29,346 nt of DNA, from IMG/VR virus record IMGVR_UViG_2541047790_000014, positions 1 through 29,346 of that record. One strand, given 5' to 3'. Made by a program: the position numbers and the translations under genes. This document shows, piece by piece, positions 1 through 21,103 of the stretch (its first letter is position 1; every line of letters starts with the position of its first letter). This DNA comes from a virus (Duplodnaviria > Heunggongvirae > Uroviricota > Caudoviricetes). The notes beneath the pieces were generated by a model. The model worked only from the letters and a program-made list of their open reading frames with translations. It was not told where the DNA came from and did not search any database.

Positions 1-1173
1 TCAGGCCTTATGGTGGAAATAATCACTCAGGCGGGAAAACATGCTGCCTTCCCCGACAGATTCCAGGGTAACCAGCGGCCAGTGCGCCACCTGTTTATCA
101 CGGTCGTAAAGTTCAATTTCCCCTACCCGCTGATGGGCGCTAATTGGCGCGGTGAGTTCTTTACCATCAAGGGTATATTTGGCTTTGATATGTGGAATTT
201 CGGCTTTCGGTAGCACCATCCAGAACTCTTGTTCCGTTCCCAGGGCGATATTTTCTTTATCACCATACCAGATGCGTTCCGTACCGACCTTTTTCCCACG
301 GTGCAAAATTTGCACCGTAGTAAAGTTTTGTTGCCCCCAACGCAGTAATTTTCTTGCCTCTTCCTCACGACCTTTTGCGCTGTCAGCCCCCATTACCACT
401 GCAATGAGGCGACGCTGCCCGTCTACAGCCGAAGCAATAAGATTAAACCCGGCACCAGAAGTATGGCCCGTTTTCAGGCCGTCAACATTCATGGTTTTAT
501 CCCACAATAACCCGTTACGGTTTTGCTGGGTGATACCGTTCCAGGTGAGGCTTTTCTCACTGTACATATGATAAAACTCGGGCTCGCCGTGGATGATAGC
601 GCGAGAAAGCACGGCTAAATCATAAGCCGAGCTATGCTGGCCAGGTGCATCCAGACCATGCACTGTTTCAAAATGCGTATCCTTGAGATGCAGCTTCTCG
701 GCATAGTTGTTCATCATTTCAACAAACTGCCGTTGCCCACCGGCAATATAGTCAGCCAGAGCAACACAAGCGTCATTTCCGGAATCCACAATTAAACCAC
801 GGCTTAAATCACGTACCGATACGCGATCGCCCTCTTTCAAAAACATCAGTGAAGAACCGACAAACACCGGATTATCTTTCGCCCACGCATCGCGCCCCAC
901 GGTGACAATATCGTCTGGCGTAATGCGATGACTATCGATAGCGCGATCCACGACATAGCCCGTCATCAGCTTTGTCAGGCTGGCGGGATTGCGCTGTTGA
1001 TGCTCATTACCCGCGGTGAGAATCTGACCGGTGGTGTAATCCATCAATACCCAGGACCCGGCATGAATCTCTGGAGGCTGAGGTGAAAAAGGAATGTTTT
1101 CCGCCGCAAAACCAGACGATAAATTAAAAACGAACAAAGAAGCAGCAATAATAAGACGGCGTTTCAACAGCAA
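1..1173 (-). CDS. dacD: D-alanyl-D-alanine carboxypeptidase, class C low-molecular-weight PBP (PBP6b-like)
   Basis: Complete 390-aa ORF with signal peptide and the three serine-PBP motifs (SLTK, SGND, KTGH). Gene identity as dacD is from memory of the E. coli protein and the divergent sbcB-like start 202 bp upstream. Confidence 0.8.
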   Translation of the reverse strand: MLLKRRLIIAASLFVFNLSSGFAAENIPFSPQPPEIHAGSWVLMDYTTGQILTAGNEHQQRNPASLTKLMTGYVVDRAIDSHRITPDDIVTVGRDAWAKDNPVFVGSSLMFLKEGDRVSVRDLSRGLIVDSGNDACVALADYIAGGQRQFVEMMNNYAEKLHLKDTHFETVHGLDAPGQHSSAYDLAVLSRAIIHGEPEFYHMYSEKSLTWNGITQQNRNGLLWDKTMNVDGLKTGHTSGAGFNLIASAVDGQRRLIAVVMGADSAKGREEEARKLLRWGQQNFTTVQILHRGKKVGTERIWYGDKENIALGTEQEFWMVLPKAEIPHIKAKYTLDGKELTAPISAHQRVGEIELYDRDKQVAHWPLVTLESVGEGSMFSRLSDYFHHKA

Positions 1174-2006: not shown

Positions 2007-4394
2007 TCATATTTTATTTAAGTTATTCTTTTTTAATGTCATCTCTAGTTCTTCGATACGTCTTTCTATATTATCAATTCTCTCCCAGCATTGCTGAATT
2101 GATTTAACAATAGGTGGGATAAACTCATCGTAACCGAGTGAGTAAACATCATCCCCACCATTTTTCAAGTGATGCTGTAGCCCACCGAACTCAACACCTA
2201 ATTTTTCACACAGTTTCAATACGTCCTGTGCAATAAACCAGTGATGGTATCGTTGACGTTTTTTACTGCCGTCAGGAGTTTTCTGCACTACTTCAAGATA
2301 TTTTTCTTCGACATTCTCAATAGCTGATATAGTAATTCCATCAACATCTCGTTCTACTTTTTTTGGTACAATTCTTGTCTTTTCAATAACATCAATATAA
2401 TCATCACGCATATCCCAGCGACCATCGACAGGACGAAGCCCAAGGATAAATTCAATCCCCAGCAAAGTATCTCGGATATCTGTTTTATCACGCGCATCAG
2501 ATCTGTTTTGCACAGTTCCATATACATACGTCGTTGTGGAAGAATTGCCAAGCTGCACCTGATTACTTCCAGACACTCTTGCATCATTGCCAACAGTTGT
2601 TGTGTTGGTAAGTGATGATGTGCTTTCCCCTGATTGAGTTAATCTACCTGAATTATGTCCAATAGCCGTGTTTAATGCGCCGGTTGTATTTGTGACAAGA
2701 GAGCCAGACCCAATTGCAACGTTACTGCTTCCCGATGTTGTTCCTTTTAATGCCTGCTGTCCAACCGCAACATTATTATCACCCGTTGCTGCTATAAGTG
2801 CCATGTGACCAATAGAAACGGTAAATGAACCTAGCGTTTGAGTTTCACCGCATGCACCATAACCAATTACAACAACATTATCTGTAATTGTTGACTCGGT
2901 TGCCGCTCCAGCACCAATAACAACGCTTTCATTCCCGGCAAGATTCTTGCGCATTGCGAACATTCCAATGCCAACATTATCATGCCCAGTCCCTGTACCT
3001 GCTGCCTCCGCAGCACCAAGACAGTTTCCCGCTCTGTAGCCAACCATGGTGTTATTTGAACCAATAGAGAAGTCTCCGGCAAAAGAGCCTACGTATACAC
3101 TATTAGACTGTGAGTAATCTCCAGGATTTCCATTCGCCCGATATCCTACTGCAACTGTATAAATAGTATCTGGAGCCTCAGCCATGGCCTCAAAGCCAAC
3201 TCCAACGTTATATCTACCGCCCTTAACTTTTTCTCCTGCACCAAGTCCGAAGAATGAGTTATAGCTCCCGGTTGTTAGCCACTCGCCAGCAACAGAACCT
3301 ACAGCAGTGTTTCCTGTTCCAGTACATCGATACAAAGTCAGGAAGCCAACTCCGGTATTATTATTTCCTGAAATATTACTCATCAATGATTTTGACCCAA
3401 TGGCAGTATTGTTAACACCATCGGTCAGATCCTGTAACGCTCGCGGGCCAAATGCTGTATTATCGTAACCCTTTGGCGCTGTTGTTGGATCTGGTAACTC
3501 CGGGGTTAGTTTTTCACCACCGCCACCATTGGCACAAAGATTGTAAGATCGAATAAATTCAGCCACTGGCCCAAGTTTTAAATAACCATTGGCAATATTA
3601 ATTCTGACACTTACATTAACTGAGCTACCAGGAGCTTCTATTGTCCTGTCATCAACCCAGGTAAAACTCTGTGGTATCCCGTCATAAGTTAATGTCACAT
3701 CTCCTTTATCATTATAATTATAGAACAATGTATAACGCTCATTTATAGATTCAGAACCTGATGATCCTCCTCTCCTCCACCACTCTGCATTATCAAAAAT
3801 AAGTAATCCTGGACCATAATATTTTCCCTTCTGACCCAAGATCATAGGAGTCGATAATCGCCACCTTCCCTCTGGAACATATACATCGATCCCAGTTCTT
3901 TCTGCGTCTTTAAACGATTCATCACATAATAAAACACCACCTTCAACAGCACCAAATCCACGAACATCACCATTATCTCTCCATCGAGCCATTTGCAACT
4001 CAGGATACTTCTTAGCGCCATCAATGTCTTCTAATTGGTCCCGCAGCTGATCAGGATCATACTTCAGTACATTAGGAAAATAGAACTGCTGAGCACCGTA
4101 AGCATCATATACAGCCATAGAATGGCCTTGCACAGTTACGAACTTGGCAATCTGTCCGTTATATACAGGGTAACCAGCAGCGTTAAGGATGATTGGTTGT
4201 GAAACAGGAATGTGAGAACCATCTTCACTCTCTACATAAACCTGAATCTGGTTTTCAGGATTTACCGGGTCAGTGTCAATTTTACCGATATAAATTTTGC
4301 CATTAGCTACGGCTTTAAAAGAGCGAGCCATAGTGAAGAGTTGCGATGGCATCCCAATTACAACATTTGGGGTTATATTAGGCATATTAGTCAT
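2007..4394 (-). CDS. Tailspike protein: P22-gp9-like head-binding N-terminal domain, repeat-rich receptor-binding domain, C-terminal intramolecular chaperone (peptidase S74-like)
   Basis: N-terminal stretch [25 protein letters not shown]...[13 protein letters not shown]...LKYDPDQ closely resembles the P22 tailspike head-binding domain. The centre has many NTAIG/NVGVG-type repeats. The C-terminus has the Ser-Lys dyad context SDARDK typical of self-cleaving fibre chaperone domains. Start placed at MTNMPN (4394); the ORF extends to 4478 but that extension lacks an RBS. Confidence 0.85.
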
Positions 4395-4730
4395 CCTGTT
4401 TGAAAACTTAGAAATTGAATAAAAAGGAATGACTGTAGACAAAGATGCAAGTGTTTTGAAAAATAATCTTCTATCCATTTTAAATCATGCAACACAAACA
4501 AAACGATTATTTTACAACGTGCACGAATCTTGATCAACAGGCATATATTTTAATTGCTGAATACGTCACTTAAAAATGACAAGTACTACTTTTATTCCTA
4601 TCGTCCATGATTTTAATTTTCAAATATTATTAAATAACAATTCCTATTTATAATATCTGTCATTTAATTTGCTCCAGATACAAGTAATCGCTGCAGCATG
4701 ACTGCAGTGATACATAATCAATCATACAAC

Positions 4731-6085: not shown

Positions 6086-8254
6086 TTACTCCTGTGCTAT
6101 TCCGCTTAGCGATGCCACAATTCCAGCCCTTGCTAAACGCTGGAAATCTTCGTTTCCTAGTGCATCGCGTATTGCTTTTACGGCGGCCTTATTTGCCATA
6201 AATCTGCGTTCAGCCGCCGCTAATGCGCCATCACTTGCCCCAACCTTAACTGCCTTTGTTGCCTCTTGAACAGCCTTTTCAATAGCGTAACGACCGCTTC
6301 TGGTTGCGGATAATTTCGCTATCGATCCTTTTGCTATTGCATCAATTGCTCCACCTGCAGCGCCACCCACTATTGCTCCAATAACACCACCTCCAGAGAA
6401 CCCTGCGATAGCGCCAGCGGTTGGAAAAGCGCCAGACAATACGCTCTCTAAAACTGGATGAAGGCCCTTCTCAAGAGTGCTAATGGCTGGCATAGAGCGC
6501 CCTGTCTGTTCAACATATCGAAGTGGCTTTGTTGCTGCTCGTGCAAGTTCTCCGTATGAACTTGTAATCCTGCCAAGTTCTGGAGAATATCGACTAATTG
6601 CCTTCACGTTTTGTGGGGTAAGAATAGTCGCGATATGCTTAATTCCAGCCCCTTCAGACTTACCTCCGCGCATCCCTTGCGATACCGTATCTTGCAATAT
6701 TGATGCAATTGCTGGCGCGCGTTCAGACTCAGGTAGGGCGCTTATTATTTTATGAAACTGACCTGTTCCACTTTTTGCTGAGCCCTGTAACGCCTTAGAG
6801 CCATTAGTTACCAACTGATCAGTTGCAAGGTCTCTACCAAACGCTGCTTCAGCCTGTTCTTGTGCTGTAAATCTTGCCTTTGACAGATCATTAGCTTTTT
6901 GCCAGTCATCAAGAAAACCGCCATTTTGAGCCATTATGCGCATATCTTCCGTTGCTGCATCACGAAGCTCAGCCATGCGCCTTGCCGTATTTGCCTCACC
7001 AGACCTTATATACTTCTGCTCAGCGTCAGCAAGTTTACTTCGCCATGCCTTCATGGCATCAAACGTGATTCCATTTTTACCAGTTTTAGCATAAGCAGAT
7101 GCGAATTGTTTCATCTCAGGAGTTAGCGGCATGCCAGCCAAAATATCACCCTGAATTGTAGCGTTCAGGTTTAACATTCTGGCCTTTGCGTCAGGCATCG
7201 TGGAGCGGACGCTATCCCATGCGGCCTTTTCTGAATTTTTCATTTTATCAATACTTGCCAAAACCCTTTGTTTTATGGCTGCACTTTTTTCTGATGCAGT
7301 TCCTGCTTCAGCCCCAAACTCATCCAATGCTGAGTTAAATTTCGACTCTATTTCACTGAATGCTTTGGTGTGTGCATCCTGTGTAATTCCGGGCTTTGAC
7401 GCCAGAATCCCCTCCGCCTGAGCAAGACCACGACTACCTGATCTCATGCCAGGAGTTAATGCGTTGATATCTATTCCAGCGGTATCTGCTGCTTTTGCTA
7501 TTTCGTCTGACACGTTAGCTGACTGTCTGGCAATAATCTCTCTTCCTGTACCAGACTTTGCCATTTTCGAAACATCAGCAGCGGAATTTATTGCCCCGCC
7601 ACCAAGAACTTGAGGTGATTTAGAGGTTAAGAGCCTTCCAGCCCCAGAAAGTATCCCCTGAGCACCAATATTGATACCACCGTTAATGGCAGCATTTTGT
7701 GCAAAGTCGCCCTCCTGATTTGCAGCATCAGCAAGAGAACCTGCAATCATGTTTCCTGCGGAACCGATATCTCCAGCGAGCTTTGCTGGCGCTCCAGCAG
7801 CTTTTGCCGCTGTGCCAATTGGCAGGAGATACCCACCAATTGTTTCACCGGCTTGCGCGTAAGGGTCTGTCGGTCGATCGACAGGGCGATAAACATCATC
7901 CAAAACCTTTGGGCCACCAAGCCCCTGGCTGATTGCATTAATCAGACTTGCGCCACCCTGTAACACGTCAAATGGTATGTTTACCAGACCACGACCAGCC
8001 TGTTCTGCAATTTGCCCTGCACTTTGACCACCAGTGAGCCAATCGCCAGCTTGTTGCATCAATGATGGTTCTTCTTTCTGCTGCTGAGGCGGAGGGTATG
8101 CTGCATAAAACTGATCTCTTGCTTCAGCCCATTTGTCACCAGCCTTAGGGGCAACAACCTCATCAAAATATTGCGCTTGAGCCTGTGCTTTCTGTTCTTC
8201 AGTTAACGCCTGATACTGTGGAGAAGCGATAACGTCTTTCCATGCTTTAGCCAT
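6086..8254 (-). CDS. Ejection (internal virion) protein, P22 gp16-like
   Basis: 722-aa Ala/Gly-rich protein at the position of P22 gene 16, immediately after the gp20-like gene with an ATGA start/stop overlap. Assigned by synteny and composition. Confidence 0.7.
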
Positions 8255-9603
8255 TAATCACCCCATAAAGACGAGAAACCGGACTTATTGCTGTCGCTTC
8301 CTGATTTTCGCTCACTAACATATGTGTCATAACCTGATGAACTGTATCCCATTGATTCAGCCTCCCTTGCTGCAACCTTTTGAAATACAGAATATTGAGA
8401 TCGTATTTCAGATAACTGTTTTCTGACGACCTCTTCAGGCTGTGTTATATCGAGTTTCGCGATCAGGTTTTCCAGTTTTTGGCCTTCAGCATTGGAGAGG
8501 CTACCCATACCTCGCATAGTCTGCACGTTCTGGACAAACGCACCCGACTTTAATTCTTCTATCGCATTACGGTTTGCAAGCCCTTCAGCACTTGTGAAGC
8601 CATCTATATTTCTTCCTTCGAAGCGACCGATACCTTCAAGCTCCTTCTTACCAAGCAAAGAATCAATTTTCTCTATCCCTCGCTCACCAGTAATCAACGC
8701 ATTGTTGTAATTATTGTTGCCATCAAGCCATCTCTTAGCCTGAGACATTCTGGCTGACGTTGCAGCTTTACCGGTTAGCGGATCAATTCCCGTCGCTGCT
8801 ATCTGTGAGTTAAGAGACAAAACATCCATATCCTGAAGTTGTCCTGCTCTTTCAAGGGCCGCCTGTGACTGCTTAAACACATACTTGTCGTGATTCAGTC
8901 TTGCCATTTGAGCCTTATAGGAAAGATCCTGCCCCCTAATAGCCCTCGCATTCGTCATGTCATTATTGCGAATGGTTTCGTTAATTCTTTGCTGCTCCTG
9001 CTGGCGACCAACCATCTTATCCTGAACAGCAAACGCCTTTTCTGGTCCAAGCGCACCGAGAGACATAGTAGTCAGCATGTGTGATAGCTGCTCGGGATTC
9101 TGGATACCTGTCTGAATCATCCAGTCAGCATTAGCACCCACGCGATTTAACCTGTCCTTGTTGTCAGTAATGAATTTACTGTAGGCTTCCGGTCCCTGAG
9201 AAAGAGCGACGTTAGCCCTCATGGCTAAATCGCCCATATCGTTGCGTTGCTGCTCATTAAGACCGGAAAACGCCTGTTGTGCCTGTGCAACAAACGCTGG
9301 ATTTTCCTGGGCAAACTTAAATAGTCCCGATGGATCACCAGAAGCCCATGCATCAGCGTGAACCTTATTGAACGCACTAATAGCTTTCTGTTGCTGTTCC
9401 TGCTTATAAATATCAGCAACTCCAGCCAGACCACGTAACGCGGTCAGACCAACGTTATTTGCACCTGAGCGAGCCAGTTCATTGTTTTCGCGGATCAGAC
9501 CAAGCGTTGCGTTAATGTCGCTTGCCTTTGGCGCATTCTCGTTTTGCGCGCCAATGCCAGCCAAAAAACCACCAGAATTAATACCCTGTTGCCACGTAGC
9601 CAT
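8254..9603 (-). CDS. Ejection protein, P22 gp20-like
   Basis: 449-aa protein in the gp7-gp20-gp16 syntenic block. Assigned by order and size. Confidence 0.7.
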
Positions 9604-9613
9604 TGATTACCCC

Positions 9614-10306
9614 TTAAAACAACGAGCCAAGCAGACCAAGACCAGCACCGATACCAGCACCCCACGGAGTTGATAGCTCGAGAGCACTGGCTATGCCACC
9701 ACCCAAAAGCGCACCGGATGCAGCACCACTAACCCCCTGCTGCAATGCTGACGGTCGGTTGGCGTTTGCCGCAGCCAGCGCCGCGCTTTGCTGTGAAATC
9801 TGACTCATGTTGTTGGCATATGTTTGCCCGGCGTTTGCCTGCCCCTGAAGAGCGCCAAGACCGATATTTGCCAGGTTGTTGTAATTGTTCATTTGTCCAG
9901 ATAGCCATTGCTGACCAAGCGTTGGTGCGATTGTTGCTAACTGATTACTGGTTGCGGTGGAACCCAATCCACCTGTTGCTTCCGCTGCCGCCAGACTCTG
10001 ATAGCGAGCCTGACCTGCAAGGTCTTTATACTGCTGAGAGTTGTAATACTGGTTAAGTGCCTGACCTTGCCCCTCCAGAGACGATAAGTTCTCGAGGCTG
10101 CCGACATACTTCTCAGCCAGAGGAGTAAACGGCTTCAGGTTATTCATGATGGTGTTGAACTGCTGATTTTGCAGGTCTGCGGCATACTTCTGAGCTTCTG
10201 CTGCATACTTTGCGCTTTTATCAGAACTGCCACCTTTACCGCCTTTTTCAGGGCAATAAGGTTCCTCGCCGCGCAGTTTTCTGCCCAGCTTAAATGCATA
10301 TAACAT
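9614..10306 (-). CDS. Ejection protein, P22 gp7-like
   Basis: 230-aa protein with Gln/Asn/Ala-rich centre and Gly-rich hydrophobic C-terminus, at the gene 7 position. Confidence 0.7.
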   Translation of the reverse strand: MLYAFKLGRKLRGEEPYCPEKGGKGGSSDKSAKYAAEAQKYAADLQNQQFNTIMNNLKPFTPLAEKYVGSLENLSSLEGQGQALNQYYNSQQYKDLAGQARYQSLAAAEATGGLGSTATSNQLATIAPTLGQQWLSGQMNNYNNLANIGLGALQGQANAGQTYANNMSQISQQSAALAAANANRPSALQQGVSGAASGALLGGGIASALELSTPWGAGIGAGLGLLGSLF

Positions 10307-10308
10307 GG

Positions 10309-10767
10309 CTATCTCCCGTGATTCAGGAAGTCGATTAGTTCTTCGCGTGTGGCGCTGTAAAACGTCACGTCATCCACGCCTTTGAAGTATTTCTTGATGG
10401 TTCCTACACGATTAAGGCCAATCATTGCGCAGTACATCTGCCCGTGGCGGAATTTGCGTGCAGCGAACGATGTGACACACTGAACAGTGGTGTTAGTCAG
10501 AATGTATCGCCAGAACGCCAGCCCGATTTCCTTGCTGAATCCACGAACCTCTGGCAGGTACATGGCGTGGCAATCGAATGTCAGCGGCTGAATCTCCTGA
10601 TAGTAAACAATGCCGCCGAACTGCCCGTGCACGTTCACCTCAAAGTAACGGCAATCAGGTTTGTAGTCGTATCCATCACCGTTGTTGCTCCCGGCAATAA
10701 TGTCAGGGTGATTTCCGACTGCTTCTATCAGGTCGATGTTTCGCGTTGGTTTGAACTGAATCATCAC
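10309..10767 (-). CDS. Ejection-protein assembly factor, P22 gp14-like
   Basis: 152-aa ORF between the needle gene and the gp7-like gene, overlapping the needle gene end. Assigned by synteny. Confidence 0.6.
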
Positions 10768-11717
10768 TGCTCCGCGATTATCTTGATGGTTGTGGCAGTA
10801 AACGCCGCACCATTTGACTGAATGGTTAACGTGCTGCCATTTGTGGCAAGAAAGCCGTCTTTATCCACGCTGAAGAACGTAGCTAACAGGATGTTATCGG
10901 TTGTTGTCGCCGAGTTGCGACTGCTTACCAGTGTGTCAGGAACAGAGCTGGAAAAGGTTAGCTGCATTGACCTGTTTGCGGTTCCGCTGGGCCACGTCCC
11001 GACGATCGACAGCTTGAAGAACAAGGTTTTGTTCTCGTTGAACACAACCATCTTGTTGTTAACGGTGTCGAAGAATGGTGCCAACGTGCCGGATGACGGC
11101 GTGAGCGTTTTCAGCAGGCTAACAAGGTTGGTCGGCGCTGTCGGGATGGTTACCGATACTCCTGAGTAAACAACCTCTGATTTCTTGCGCGTGGTGGCAT
11201 ACTCAAGCGCAGATATTCTTGTTGAGTGATCACCAACTGTGCTTTGTAGTGTCGAAATACTTCCCTCTGCCGCTGTGAGCCTGGTATCAAGTGCGTCGAT
11301 ATCGGTTGTATTCTGAGTTATTCGCGCATCATGGTTTGCTAACTCAGATTCATTGGCAGCAATTCGCGTCTCGTGATCAGCCAGCTCTGTTTCGGCAGCC
11401 GTAATCCTTGTTTCATGATCTGCAAGAGTGCTTTCCGCTGCTGCAATTCTATGTTCATGATTGATGAGAGTTGCTTCAGCAGCTTCAATTCTGGATTCAT
11501 GGTCTGCAAGGGTGACATCCTGCTCATCATTCTTCACCTGTGCATCATAAGCCCCCTTCCCTGCTTCGTTGGCCTTGTTAGCCACGTTACCAACATCAGT
11601 GCCCTGTGCGATAACGTAAAGCAGATACGACTGCGAGAAGATATTGCGTGGAAGAACTGATGTATCGAGCCGCGTAGCCTGGATGATTACTGGCTCATTG
11701 AGATTCGAATCAGCCAT
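10764..11717 (-). CDS. Tail needle protein (gp26-like) with extended coiled coil and C-terminal knob-like domain
   Basis: N-terminus [43 protein letters not shown]...[11 protein letters not shown] closely matches my recollection of P22 gp26. This is followed by repeated LADHETRI-type heptads and an extra Ser/Thr-rich C-terminal domain of about 140 aa. Confidence 0.85.
11270..11520. repeat. Imperfect tandem 42-bp coding repeats (coiled-coil heptads) inside the needle gene
   Basis: Repeating DNA units encode [13 protein letters not shown] / [13 protein letters not shown] / [13 protein letters not shown]. Confidence 0.6.
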
Positions 11718-13135
11718 TACTCAATCCTTATCTGGCAGCCAGACAGAGTGACAGGTGACTTCGTGATAACGCGCAATTTGAAGCCGACATTTTTCCTGAT
11801 GCGCCCGACTCGCTTCCACAAAACGCGTTTGTCGTAAACGAACGGTTCATTCTGCTCAATCATCTGCTCACGACCGTAATTTATGCCGTCAGTGGTTGCA
11901 GAGAGAAAAAGGCGATCGGCGTACTGCGCAACACCCGTTGAAGATTCAACTTCAAGGTCGAAAACTCTGGCGTTATCCGCTTTGAAGAGGGGAGTAAACA
12001 GCAGGTGTTCCTGTTGCTTGTCGTACTGGCTGCTGATATCGAACTGCAATTTGCCGGTAACCGATTCCAGCTTATCGCCGCACGTTATCTGATTGCCTTC
12101 GTAAATGAAGTCGATAGCGCGGTACACATCGTCATACAAGCCTGTTTTCAGCACACACCATTGCGGACCATTGGCGCTTGAAGATGCGTCGTACACGAGA
12201 ACATGGCGAGGAAGGTGGATAATCAGCAACTCATGAGCATCAAATCGCAGCGATTCCATCACACCATCAGCCAGTTCATCAGCAGTGTAGGAGCGGAGGA
12301 TTTTCTCAATGCTCGCGCTGGCGATTGGTGACACCTGACCGGAGCCGATGATGTATACAGACGGCGCACCCGTTGCCGGATTGCTGATGAACGCATAGGA
12401 ATCAGCAAACGGCGTTTTGCAGTAAGTTCCGGCAATGCCTTTCTGCACCATCAGCGATGGCTGTGCGACATACAACGCGGCACCAACAGTGGTTGCACCA
12501 GTCAGGGAGAAATATTCAATCGTTGATGAACCAAAGCAGACGATGAAGTCTCGCCATGTTCCGATACCGATGATGCCGTCCGGCTGCGATTCTGCGCGAT
12601 ATTGTGCGCTGTATCGGTCAGGATGCGATTCGTCTTCAAGGTCAGTGATAAACCATGAATCAGTTCCGTCTTTTGACCACGCATAACGCCCACGTAAGCG
12701 CGTAATGTCGCGGACTGAGCCTAACTCATACTGAGTGAATCCACTGTCTGTAGGCCAGTTTGAGACGGTTTTAACCGTGCCATCATAGCGATACTCGACC
12801 AGTTGACCATTAACGCCTACAGCCTGAGATGTCCGACCATGCGCCATTGATACGCGACCACTTCCGGCGACGTCACCGACTTCGCTTTCGCCTTTGTAAA
12901 GCTTCCCACCACACACGCGATAAACAGCACTCTGCGCCATGTTGTACTCGACGCCGCGCGATACGCCGTTCACATCAGAACGTTTGGCAATGCCCGGGAA
13001 TGAGCGAAGATATCCGCTGCTGTTAAGGATTTCTTTGGGTGTTGCCAACATATTTACTGGCAGATAGTCGATATAGTCGGCGTTTCGAAAGTCTTTGCCG
13101 ACACCTTTCATAAGCGGAAGTTGCTGAATCGGCAT
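11717..13135 (-). CDS. Tail hub / packaged-DNA stabilization protein, P22 gp10-like
   Basis: 472-aa protein (same length as P22 gp10) in the gp4-gp10-gp26 block; ATGA overlap with the needle gene. Confidence 0.75.
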
Positions 13136-13144
13136 TTATTCACC

Positions 13145-13606
13145 TCACGTACTCGGATCATCTTTCTCGATGTAAAACCGATTCCACGTAAACGCGCTTT
13201 TGTTACCACTACCGCGAGGCATGTCATTTCGTCGCTCAAGTGGTGGTATTTTGGTTAAAGCGATACAGATTGTCTGATATGCACTGTCAGCAGCGGTCAG
13301 GAGAGCATCCGACGGCTGAATGACGTTATCCATGCACACTTGCACAGCGAGCTTCAAAGCGACGCCATCATTTGCCCATGCAGGGATACCTGAATCATCG
13401 TCAGGTAACGGCATGATGCCGTTTTCTGTATCCGCAAACTGATATCCAAGCTCGATACCTTTCGCCTGCCATGCTGCCATCATGTCTTCGAGGTCATTAA
13501 TGGCATCTTCAATTGCCTGAGGGTCGGCATCTGTCAACGTGGCATTGGAATACAGCCCGGCTTTTCGTAAAGCCTTAAGAACGAGATCACCCTTCGTTTT
13601 CGCCAT
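13145..13606 (-). CDS. Head-to-tail adaptor / DNA stabilization protein, P22 gp4-like
   Basis: 153-aa protein with N-terminus KTKGDLVLKALRKAGLYSNATLTDADPQAIEDAINDLEDMMAAWQ resembling P22 gp4. Confidence 0.8.
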   Translation of the reverse strand: MAKTKGDLVLKALRKAGLYSNATLTDADPQAIEDAINDLEDMMAAWQAKGIELGYQFADTENGIMPLPDDDSGIPAWANDGVALKLAVQVCMDNVIQPSDALLTAADSAYQTICIALTKIPPLERRNDMPRGSGNKSAFTWNRFYIEKDDPST

Positions 13607-20617: not shown

Positions 20618-21103
20618 TTATTTCAGTTCGTTACCAGGCATTTCTTTTAGCTCTTTCAAATGACAACGATTGAGGCTAAACCACTCCCCGTGCGACCTAT
20701 AGTTGTAATATTTTTGGTGCAATTTGGTTTCAAGCTCTCTATCGGACGGAATCTTTGCAATTAGATTTAGCTTCCCACCACTCATGCGAGATATCTCTGA
20801 AATTCGTTTATTAACCCTGCGACTAAACCCTATTTTTGTTAGCCCACTATCTTCAGCATGCAGAACGTACACATATGATTTTTGCGAAGCACTGGGTGCG
20901 ACTTTGTTGTAATTAATCATGTCAAACATGAAGCCTTGCTTTAGCAAAGTTTCAAAAAAGATAGAATTAACACACCCATTCCTTCTCAGCTCTGCACTTA
21001 GCTTGTCAATTTCCTCTATGATGTCGCCAGACCCCTTTCCACTTATAAGAAAATCTTGGTACATGCGACCAATTCTTGAGGTAATTTCAACAAAGTTATT
21101 CAT
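20618..21103 (-). CDS. T5orf172 (GIY-YIG-like) domain protein, accessory gene
   Basis: 161-aa protein whose C-terminal half (YVYVLHAEDSGLTKIGFSRRVNKRISEIS...LETKLHQKYYNYRSHGEWFSL) matches the T5orf172/MUG113 pattern (YVYVL, KIG, R, E..LH, GEWF). AT-rich, weak RBS, set between a terminator and the terminase operon. Confidence 0.65.
   Translation of the reverse strand: MNNFVEITSRIGRMYQDFLISGKGSGDIIEEIDKLSAELRRNGCVNSIFFETLLKQGFMFDMINYNKVAPSASQKSYVYVLHAEDSGLTKIGFSRRVNKRISEISRMSGGKLNLIAKIPSDRELETKLHQKYYNYRSHGEWFSLNRCHLKELKEMPGNELK

What the first reader, a model, noticed from the sequence alone, without database searches (positions are those of the whole stretch)
10764..11717. Tail needle with expanded heptad repeats and an added C-terminal knob-like domain
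The needle shares its N-terminal hub-plug region with P22 gp26 but is about 80 residues longer. It has near-tandem 14-residue repeats encoded by 42-bp DNA repeats and a Ser/Thr-rich beta-type C-terminal domain. Repeat number could vary by slippage and the distal domain may contact the cell envelope.
Basis: partly seen in the sequence, partly recalled or inferred. Interest (0 to 1): 0.45.

Follow-up and report, generated by a model that had tools for sequence, protein, structure and literature searches.

The report
Known HS1-type phage tail needle
This gene encodes the tail needle of a P22-like prophage of E. coli, 98% identical to the already characterised "HS1" needle whose knob has a crystal structure, so it is ordinary; its coiled-coil shaft does vary in length between related prophages, nearly always in whole 7-residue steps.

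Summary
Window 10764-11717 (- strand) is a 317-aa ORF with three parts: a P22 gp26-like N-terminal plug, a long heptad coiled coil with a highly significant 14-residue (42-bp) super-repeat, and a beta-rich C-terminal domain.

It is not new. The protein is 310/317 identical, without gaps, to the tail needle of prophage HS1 of E. coli HS, which Leavitt et al. 2013 described as 317 aa with 16 heptads against 11 in Sf6 and P22. The knob is 152/153 identical to the HS1 knob crystal structure (4K6B) and matches Pfam PF16532 at E=2e-107. All published L-glutamate- and phosphate-binding residues are present. The knob replaces the P22 tip domain; it is not added to it.

The slippage prediction holds. 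Among 102 anchored homologues the N part (68 aa) and C part (146 aa) are nearly always constant, while the shaft ranges from 40 to 131 aa, almost always in 7-aa quanta. Near-identical alleles differ by clean indels of -42, -42, -84, -147 and +84 bp at short direct repeats.

Shaft length is not tightly coupled to tailspike type.

Verdict: already known, low interest. The wider length range (about 7-20 heptads) is a small increment.

The parts
10764..11717 (-). Tail needle gene (317 aa plus stop), HS1/Sf6-knob type; homologue of P22 gene 26 and Sf6 gene 9
   Evidence: ORF. 310/317 aa identical to the HS1 needle with no gaps. RefSeq annotates the 100%-identical ZH063 gene as 'tail needle knob protein' WP_001576811.1.
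11514..11717 (-). Residues 1-68: conserved N-terminal virion-binding (hub-plug) region, ending at the NDEQDV anchor
   Evidence: Matches P22 gp26 structures 2POH, 3C9I and 8EAP. Length is 68 aa in 96 of 102 anchored homologues. 71% identical to a P22-type-tip needle over residues 1-98. Plug role taken from PMC9728967.
11199..11513 (-). Residues 69-173: trimeric coiled-coil shaft, 15 consecutive heptads in register (the literature counts 16 for HS1)
   Evidence: The a positions are always L/I/V; the d positions alternate H/N with A/L. The AF2 model has one continuous helix 42-175 with pLDDT about 97. All length variation among homologues maps here.
11301..11510 (-). Five 42-bp / 14-aa units (residues 70-139): [70 protein letters not shown]
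   Evidence: Breakpoints of natural deletions and duplications fall in register in this block.
10767..11198 (-). Residues 174-317: Sf6-type needle knob, a TNF/C1q-like jelly-roll domain
   Evidence: Pfam PF16532 at E=2.1e-107. 152/153 identical to 4K6B and 150/153 to 3RWN. Foldseek top hits are 4K6B and 3RWN, followed by BclA, PRD1 P5, C1q and TNF. L-Glu ligand residues E181, K235, S283, D285, L290, K312 and the S266-R267-N268 triad are present.
11717..13135 (-). gp10-type tail hub, the channel that the needle plugs
   Evidence: PF11134 at E=1.4e-300; RefSeq name 'packaged DNA stabilization protein gp10'.
13145..13606 (-). gp4-type head-to-tail adaptor
   Evidence: PF11650 at E=7e-41.
10309..10767 (-). 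DUF2824 gene immediately downstream, in the position of P22 gene 14
   Evidence: PF11039 at E=5e-53. The same neighbour follows the needle in all variant loci.
6086..10306 (-). Ejection-protein genes: gp7 (9614-10306), gp20 (8254-9603) and a 722-aa protein in the gp16 position (6086-8254)
   Evidence: PF25688 and PF16928 hits. The 722-aa protein has no Pfam hit at 1e-5.
2007..4478 (-). Tailspike with a P22-type head-binding N-terminal domain (792 aa from the RefSeq start)
   Evidence: PF09008 at E=1.2e-63; RefSeq annotation.

Best explanation
The gene encodes the trimeric tail needle of a P22-like prophage. The window is the prophage next to dacD in E. coli ZH063. The needle is of the HS1 subtype of Sf6-type needles.

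Shown here by sequence and structure comparison: the architecture has three parts. Residues 1-68 are the conserved gp26-like N-terminal region. A heptad coiled-coil shaft follows, five heptads longer than that of Sf6 or P22. Residues 174-317 form the Sf6-type knob, with every published L-glutamate- and phosphate-binding residue intact.

Taken from the literature on HS1, Sf6 and P22: the N-terminal helical hairpin plugs the hexameric gp10 tail-hub channel and keeps the packaged DNA in. The shaft projects beyond the tailspikes. The needle touches the cell surface, is lost at the start of infection, and its tip influences how fast DNA is delivered, without setting host specificity.

Inferred here from comparative data: the shaft is built from diverged 42-bp (14-aa) units. 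Replication slippage or unequal recombination at short in-register direct repeats (3-7 bp exact, up to 17 of 19 bp imperfect) deletes or duplicates blocks of 42, 84 or 147 bp. Because the DNA period equals two heptads, nearly all products keep the coiled-coil register and remain functional. This yields a natural length series of needles.
For: Identity:
- 310/317 aa identical to the HS1 needle with no gaps.
- Knob 152/153 identical to 4K6B and 150/153 to 3RWN; PF16532 at E=2e-107.
- Ligand residues conserved.
- AF2 model has helix 42-175 and a beta knob; Foldseek top hits are 4K6B and 3RWN.

Context:
- Gene order gp4, gp10, needle, DUF2824, gp7, gp20, then tailspike.
- Window 1-23717 matches ZH063 with 1 mismatch.

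Literature:
- HS1 needle is 317 aa with 16 heptads against 11; knob swaps and K+ release kinetics (PMC3741392).
- Plug geometry (PMC9728967).
- Needle contacts the surface and is then lost; Sf6 host-range mutations map to the tailspike (PMC9400499).

Length series:
- Among 102 anchored homologues the N part is 68 aa in 96 and the C part is 146 aa in 101.
- The shaft is 40, 54, 68, 75, 82, 89, 96, 103, 117, 124 or 131 aa, all equal to 5 mod 7. Only 4 singleton alleles are off register.

Recent events in nearly identical DNA (1-3 other mismatches):
- Two different 42-bp deletions, at CGCGAAT and at AGAATTG.
- A 147-bp deletion at TGATCAC.
- An 84-bp deletion, and the reciprocal perfect 84-bp tandem duplication (84/84 identical), at the same imperfect 19-bp repeat.
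Against: Nothing contradicts the identification. The weak points concern mechanism.
- Trimerisation, virion incorporation and plug function were not and cannot be tested here; they are transferred from 98%-identical and related proteins.
- Slippage versus unequal homologous recombination cannot be distinguished from end products.
- Some length classes could have spread by horizontal exchange, not by repeated independent events.
- The units within this gene are only 40-71% identical at the DNA level, so it is not a fast, perfect-repeat contingency locus.
Confidence: 0.96

Rival explanations
1. The knob is the receptor-binding domain that determines host range, for example by binding OmpA/OmpC or another envelope component. 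The needle would then be primarily an adhesin.
For: The knob has the TNF/C1q-like jelly-roll fold of the PRD1 P5 and adenovirus fibre knobs (PMC3741392). It sits at the most distal point of the virion, and the P22 needle touches the cell surface in cryo-ET (cited in PMC9400499).
Against: P22 carrying the Sf6 or HS1 knob infects Salmonella normally, so the knob does not confer species specificity (PMC3741392). Sf6 host-range expansion mutants that change Omp use all map to the tailspike, not the needle (PMC9400499). Knob sequences are nearly invariant (no more than 4.9% divergence) across prophages carrying 86 different tailspike receptor-domain clusters. That is not the pattern expected of a specificity determinant.
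Confidence: 0.1
2. The 42-bp repeat block is a contingency locus. Needle length would switch at high frequency within a phage population, so that different particles carry different needles.
For: Many length alleles exist in nearly identical sequence backgrounds, including a perfect 84/84 tandem duplication that must be recent.
Against: The units are diverged (40-71% DNA identity). The longest exact direct repeats at the breakpoints are 7 bp, far from the perfect tandem arrays of true contingency loci. Two classes dominate: the 282-aa cluster has 3620 members and the 317-aa cluster 1430. IMG/VR loci are almost all 282 or 317 aa. This implies stable inheritance with occasional events.
Confidence: 0.05
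3. Shaft length is tuned to the tailspike or the surface-glycan layer, acting as a ruler: longer tailspikes or thicker O-antigen or capsule would require longer needles.
For: Tailspikes paired with 317-aa needles are slightly longer than those paired with 282-aa needles: median 690 aa against 653 aa, Mann-Whitney p=0.038, without phylogenetic correction.
Against: The distributions overlap almost completely (IQR 648-740 against 630-709). Each needle length occurs with dozens of unrelated tailspike types. In 4 of 18 multi-member tailspike clusters, the same tailspike type (at least 90% identical) occurs with two different needle lengths. A P22 hybrid carrying the Sf6 sequence for about two-thirds of the shaft plus the knob behaved like wild type.
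Confidence: 0.12

Closest known systems
Tail needle of prophage HS1 of E. coli HS (EcHS_A0316, WP_000785558.1; knob structure PDB 4K6B)
   Same: 317 aa, the same 16-heptad shaft and the same knob. 310/317 identical with no gaps. Same gene neighbourhood.
   Different: Seven substitutions: E8V, K54Q, K62R, D100E, A107D, T138A and S257G, written as window residue, position, HS1 residue. The prophages also differ in integration site and tailspike: next to dacD with a 792-aa tailspike here, at tRNA-Thr near proA with a 636-aa tailspike in HS.
Shigella phage Sf6 gene 9 tail needle (282 aa; knob structure PDB 3RWN)
   Same: The same N-terminal plug and the same knob (150/153 identical over the crystallised part). 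Same role and same gene position.
   Different: The Sf6 shaft is 35 residues (5 heptads) shorter, with a central segment of 68 aa against 103 aa, and its shaft sequence differs (ISAAEAT LVNHEER ...).
Salmonella phage P22 gp26 (233 aa; PDB 2POH, 3C9I)
   Same: Homologous N-terminal hub-binding region and start of the coiled coil (E about 1e-42, residues 1-135). Same plug function and same gene order.
   Different: P22 ends in an unrelated tip domain (codons 141-233) where this protein has the knob. Its shaft has 11 heptads against 16.
PDB 4LIN, a 300-residue gp26 with an internally duplicated helical core (from my own knowledge, an engineered elongated fibre)
   Same: It shows that duplicating a block of the shaft in heptad register gives a folded, longer needle. 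The duplicated segment is visible in the alignment. This is the laboratory analogue of the natural +84-bp allele.
   Different: It has the P22 tip, not the knob. By my recollection it is a designed construct, not a natural allele.
PRD1 P5, adenovirus fibre knob, and C1q/TNF-like trimeric jelly rolls
   Same: The same fold class at the distal end of a trimeric fibre (Foldseek hits 1YQ5, C1q and TNF).
   Different: Sequence identity is only about 10-18%. In those systems the knob is a receptor-binding module, which has not been shown for the needle knob.

Membership tests
P22 gp26 / Sf6 gp9 tail needle family | Conserved N-terminal region of about 60-70 residues that binds and plugs the tail hub | tested here: met
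   phmmer hits to 2POH, 3C9I, 4ZXQ and 8EAP at E=1e-27 to 1e-43. 71% identity to a P22-type needle over residues 1-98. The NDEQDV anchor lies at residue 68, as in 96 of 102 homologues.
P22 gp26 / Sf6 gp9 tail needle family | Long uninterrupted heptad coiled-coil shaft | tested here: met
   15 consecutive heptads from residue 70 with L/I/V at every a position. AF2 gives a single helix 42-175 with pLDDT about 97.
P22 gp26 / Sf6 gp9 tail needle family | Homotrimeric assembly, presence at the virion tail tip, and retention of packaged DNA | not testable with these tools
   Transferred from experiments on P22, Sf6 and HS1 proteins (PMC3741392, PMC9728967).
P22 gp26 / Sf6 gp9 tail needle family | Gene position directly after the gp10 tail-hub gene, in the gp4, gp10, needle, gp14, gp7, gp20, gp16 cassette | tested here: met
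   Pfam hits of the neighbours, RefSeq annotation, and the same order in five variant loci.
Sf6-type needle knob (Pfam PF16532 Phage_tail_NK) | C-terminal domain matching the family model above the curated threshold | tested here: met
   356.8 bits against a cut-off of 27, E=2.1e-107, covering profile positions 1-175 of 175.
Sf6-type needle knob (Pfam PF16532 Phage_tail_NK) | TNF-like jelly-roll fold | tested here: met
   152/153 identical to crystal structure 4K6B. The AF2 model superposes on 4K6B and 3RWN with TM (target) 0.87-0.89.
Sf6-type needle knob (Pfam PF16532 Phage_tail_NK) | Residues that bind three L-glutamates at the subunit interfaces (E181, K235, S283, D285, L290, K312) and the S266-R267-N268 phosphate triad | tested here: met
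   All eleven residues checked are present at the published HS1 positions, including HS1-specific S169 and A305 (against PMC3741392). Actual ligand binding was not tested.
HS1 subtype (16-heptad shaft) | 317 aa, with a shaft 5 heptads longer than Sf6 | tested here: met
   Central segment of 103 aa against 68 aa in Sf6-type proteins. Gap-free alignment to the HS1 gene.

The most novel reading that the evidence does not exclude
The heptad-quantised shaft length is a selected trait, not neutral drift. It was found here to span about 7 to 20 heptads (254-345 aa), wider than the 11-16 heptads reported in 2013. It is generated by recurrent, partly reciprocal, microhomology-mediated deletions and duplications of 42, 84 and 147 bp. 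Under this reading, needle length would set the distance or the timing at which the plug senses the outer membrane and is released. Lineages would then shift length to match envelope architecture or to tune ejection kinetics.
Probability: 0.12. Interest if true: 0.4.

Novelty: already known. Interest (0 to 1): 0.1.

Why it matters
It matters little for discovery. The protein is an allele (98% identical) of a needle that has been cloned, crystallised (knob, 1.1 A) and tested genetically.

The useful outcomes are practical:
1. The region can be annotated with confidence as an HS1/Sf6-knob-type tail needle inside an apparently complete P22-like tail and ejection cassette.
2. The survey gives a compact natural series of needles that differ only by whole numbers of heptads in an otherwise nearly identical background: 268, 289, 303, 317 and 345 aa. 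This is a ready-made set for testing whether needle length affects DNA-ejection timing or particle stability. The title of the 2009 study by Bhardwaj et al. reports a correlation between stability and coiled-coil length.
3. It illustrates how a DNA period of 42 bp, equal to two heptads, makes slippage products structurally safe.

Tried and rejected
- The repeat finder on the gene gave only fragmentary two- or three-copy families, because the units are too diverged (one search was a strand error). TRF and in-register comparison were more informative.
- I tried to read the two primary papers, Bhardwaj 2009 JMB and Bhardwaj 2011 JBC. Neither is held. Their content is cited only through Leavitt 2013 and through the titles in its reference list.
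- A first regular expression for locating needle ORFs in distant loci was too strict and missed them. It was redone from the match coordinates.
- MAFFT misplaced the +84-bp insertion of P0001, which inflated the mismatch count. Direct inspection showed a perfect tandem duplication.
- I tested whether needle length tracks the tailspike. The result was only a weak shift in tailspike length (p=0.038, uncorrected), and the same tailspike types occur with different needle lengths. I rejected this as a tight coupling.
- IMG/VR holds almost only the 282- and 317-aa classes, so the rarer classes could not be included in that test.
- The + strand ORFs overlapping the gene (10822-11169 and 11373-11660) are in antisense to a strongly conserved coding sequence, and I did not search them for homologues. 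I treat them as chance ORFs.
- No tRNA genes were found in the window.
- A paper on polar-core coiled coils mentions the P22 gp26 NxxQD calcium site only. It is not relevant to the His/Ala d-layer pattern seen here.

Full report
**1. What is there**

Window 10764..11717 on the - strand is an ATG-initiated ORF of 317 aa. Its start codon overlaps the stop of the upstream 472-aa gene (TAATG). Its stop overlaps the start of the downstream 152-aa gene, the usual tight coupling of a phage late operon. The window itself (bases 1-23717) matches the chromosome of E. coli ZH063 with one mismatch. It covers a P22-like prophage that abuts dacD.

**2.

The N-terminal part matches the solved P22 gp26 needle: 2POH at E=2.6e-42 over residues 1-135, plus 3C9I, 4ZXQ and 8EAP. 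At 317 aa it is 84 residues longer than the 233-aa gp26.

The repeat evidence is as follows.
- Tandem Repeats Finder reports a 42-bp period (3.0 copies, 11391-11514, 68% matches).
- Read in register from residue 70 the units are [56 protein letters not shown] and [14 protein letters not shown], followed by weaker units.
- The first four share 8-11 of 14 residues. DNA identity is 48-71% among those four and 40-71% among the first five.
- The periodicity is not chance. There are 43 identical residues at offset 14 in the 112-residue shaft, against 9.0 +/- 2.8 in 5000 shuffles (none reached it). DNA identity at offset 42 is 0.51, against 0.295 +/- 0.027 in codon shuffles.
- Every heptad a position is L, I or V. 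The d positions alternate His/Asn with Ala/Leu, which is what makes a 14-residue super-repeat out of a 7-residue one.

The C-terminal 144 residues are 29% Ser+Thr.

**3. What it is**

- The C-terminal domain matches Pfam PF16532, 'Sf6-type phage tail needle knob', with 356.8 bits against a cut-off of 27 (E=2.1e-107).
- Residues 165-317 are 152/153 identical to PDB 4K6B (HS1 knob) and 150/153 to 3RWN (Sf6 gene 9 knob).
- I located the HS1 prophage in E. coli HS (NC_009800, needle gene at 320115-321068). The window protein is 310/317 identical to it, with no gaps.
- An AlphaFold2 model built on 33 homologues gives one continuous helix from 42 to 175 (pLDDT about 97) and a beta-rich domain from 179 to 316.
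- Its best Foldseek matches are 4K6B and 3RWN (TM 0.87-0.89 on the target), followed by BclA, PRD1 P5, C1q-like and TNF-family trimers.
- The neighbours are the P22 tail and ejection cassette: gp4 (PF11650), gp10 (PF11134, E=1e-300), needle, DUF2824 in the gene-14 position, gp7 (PF25688), gp20 (PF16928), a 722-aa protein in the gp16 position, and further on a tailspike with the P22 head-binding domain.

**4. It is already described**

Leavitt et al. 2013 (PMC3741392) state the following.
- The HS1 needle (EcHS_A0316, 317 residues) has an N-terminal domain 98% identical to Sf6.
- Its helical core has '16 heptad repeats, compared to 11 in the Sf6 and P22 needles', and its knob is 99% identical to Sf6.
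- They solved the knob at 1.1 A and found three L-glutamates bound at the subunit interfaces (E181, K235, S283, D285, L290, K312) and a phosphate at the S266-R267-N268 triad.

All of these residues are present at the same positions in the window protein. The same paper notes that needles of P22-like phages have 11-16 heptads and are 220-320 A long. So the 'expanded heptad repeats' and the 'knob-like domain' are both in the literature for a 98%-identical protein.

The knob is not added to a P22-type needle. It replaces the unrelated P22 tip domain (codons 141-233). Similarity to a P22-type-tip needle ends near residue 98.

**5. How it works (shown versus inferred)**

Shown here: the three-part architecture, the fold and ligand-site conservation of the knob, and the gene context.

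Taken from experiments on P22, Sf6 and HS1:
- The N-terminal helical hairpin of the trimer forms a quasi-sixfold plug in the hexameric tail-hub channel (PMC9728967).
- The needle projects from the centre of the tail, touches the cell surface, and is lost before the ejection proteins and DNA leave (PMC9400499 citing P22 cryo-ET).
- P22 carrying an Sf6 or HS1 knob infects Salmonella normally, so the knob does not set host specificity. The HS1-knob hybrid, however, releases K+ at 40-70% of the wild-type rate, so the tip affects delivery kinetics.
- Sf6 host-range mutants that alter Omp use map to the tailspike, not the needle.

**6. The slippage prediction**

This is the part of the finding that could still have failed, and it did not. 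Among the 120 best homologues, 102 contain both an N anchor (NDEQD[VI]) and a knob anchor.
- The segment before the N anchor is 68 aa in 96 of them, and the segment from the knob anchor to the end is 146 aa in 101.
- The segment between the anchors takes the values 40, 54, 68, 75, 82, 89, 96, 103, 117, 124 and 131 aa, all equal to 5 mod 7.
- Only four singleton alleles are off register: 71, 84, 95 and 102 aa.
- Total lengths therefore run 254, 268, 282, 289, 296, 303, 310, 317, 331, 338 and 345 aa.
- Counting from the published 11 heptads for Sf6 and 16 for HS1, this is about 7 to 20 heptads, wider than the published 11-16.

I fetched the DNA for five alleles that are otherwise nearly identical to the window gene, with 1-3 mismatches in about 390 bp. 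They differ from it as follows.
- A 42-bp deletion between two copies of CGCGAAT.
- A different 42-bp deletion between two copies of AGAATTG.
- A 147-bp deletion between two copies of TGATCAC.
- An 84-bp deletion between the imperfect 19-bp repeats CACCCTTGCAGACCATGAA and CACTCTTGCAGATCATGAA.
- The reciprocal product at that same repeat pair: a perfect (84/84) tandem duplication of the same 84-bp block.

Sf6-type shafts show the analogous 28-residue block in two and three copies (P0054 and P0051). I infer replication slippage or unequal exchange at short in-register direct repeats. Because the DNA period is exactly two heptads, nearly every product preserves the coiled-coil register. The end products cannot distinguish slippage from unequal recombination. 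The low identity between units (40-71%) and the dominance of two length classes argue against a rapidly switching contingency locus. Those classes are 282 aa (cluster of 3620 members) and 317 aa (cluster of 1430 members).

**7. Does length matter? A test of the most interesting reading**

I fetched 181 IMG/VR loci with 10-kb flanks and extracted needle and tailspike from each. 113 loci have both complete.
- After removing duplicates, tailspikes paired with 282-aa needles (n=65) have a median of 653 aa (IQR 630-709).
- Those paired with 317-aa needles (n=38) have a median of 690 aa (IQR 648-740).
- Mann-Whitney p=0.038, with no correction for shared ancestry.
- The 113 tailspikes fall into 86 receptor-domain clusters at 90% identity. 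Four of the 18 clusters with more than one member contain two different needle lengths.

So the same tailspike works with 11- and 16-heptad needles. A tight 'ruler' coupling is not supported, though a loose trend cannot be excluded.

**8. Distribution**

- The 954-bp gene is found at full length in 164 of 5426 complete E. coli genomes. Some part of it is found in 871.
- It is also in phages JEP4, vB_EcoP-720R6 and Gally, while Sf6, N7 and Kapi1 carry the 282-aa form.
- Many O157:H7 genomes match only the knob half. This may correspond to the small P22 remnants carrying an Sf6-type needle gene that Leavitt et al. noted in over 100 E. coli genomes.
- Knob-type needles now also appear in Citrobacter, Buttiauxella, Klebsiella aerogenes and Serratia marcescens records at 59-78% identity. 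In 2013 they were known only from Escherichia and Shigella.

**9. Verdict**

The feature is already known: an allele of the HS1 tail needle. The incremental findings are the heptad-quantised length series, its breakpoints, and the lack of tight coupling to the tailspike. They are tidy but not surprising for a coiled-coil fibre built from repeats. Interest is low.

Noticed in passing
window 6086-8254 (-): The 722-aa protein in the position of ejection protein gp16 has no Pfam hit at E<=1e-5 and is 'hypothetical' in RefSeq. The 602-665-aa proteins at the same position in five related prophages hit PF26808 (Phage_P22_gp16). It may be a divergent or replaced gp16.
   Followed up: no
window 20618-21103 (-): A 161-aa protein with T5orf172/MUG113 hits, annotated by RefSeq as GIY-YIG nuclease family, lies between the lysis cassette and the terminase genes. 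Prophage HS1 has a Rha-family regulator in that slot, so this looks like a variable moron or homing-endonuclease position.
   Followed up: partly
P0055 (309 aa), P0008 (316 aa), P0050 (298 aa), P0052 (285 aa); no window coordinates: These are rare needle alleles whose shaft length is not a multiple of 7 away from the others. For example, P0055 has a 27-residue duplication that shifts the heptad phase by one. They may be sequencing errors, dead genes, or needles with a local coiled-coil discontinuity.
   Followed up: no
L089-L092 (Citrobacter, Buttiauxella); P0064, P0067 (Klebsiella aerogenes, Serratia marcescens): Full-length knob-type needles at 59-78% identity occur outside Escherichia and Shigella. 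This extends the host range reported for this needle type in 2013. The knob's C-terminal strand ([12 protein letters not shown]) is unchanged in the four full-length sequences I read (L089-L092).
   Followed up: partly
L093:1501-2271 (Tatumella morbirosei): This is a needle with a P22-type tip whose shaft has five near-perfect copies of LADHExR(I/L)xAAETE. So the 14-residue His/Ala super-repeat is a property of the whole needle family, not of knob-type needles only.
   Followed up: no
window 2007-4478 (-): The tailspike ORF runs 31 codons upstream of the RefSeq start (823 aa against 792 aa). The Pfam head-binding domain begins at residue 32 of the long form, which supports the shorter RefSeq start.
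   Followed up: partly
window 1-1173 (-) and 1174-2006: The prophage ends next to dacD, whereas HS1 sits at tRNA-Thr near proA. The roughly 830-bp gap between the tailspike gene and dacD, where an attachment-site junction would be expected, was not examined.
   Followed up: no
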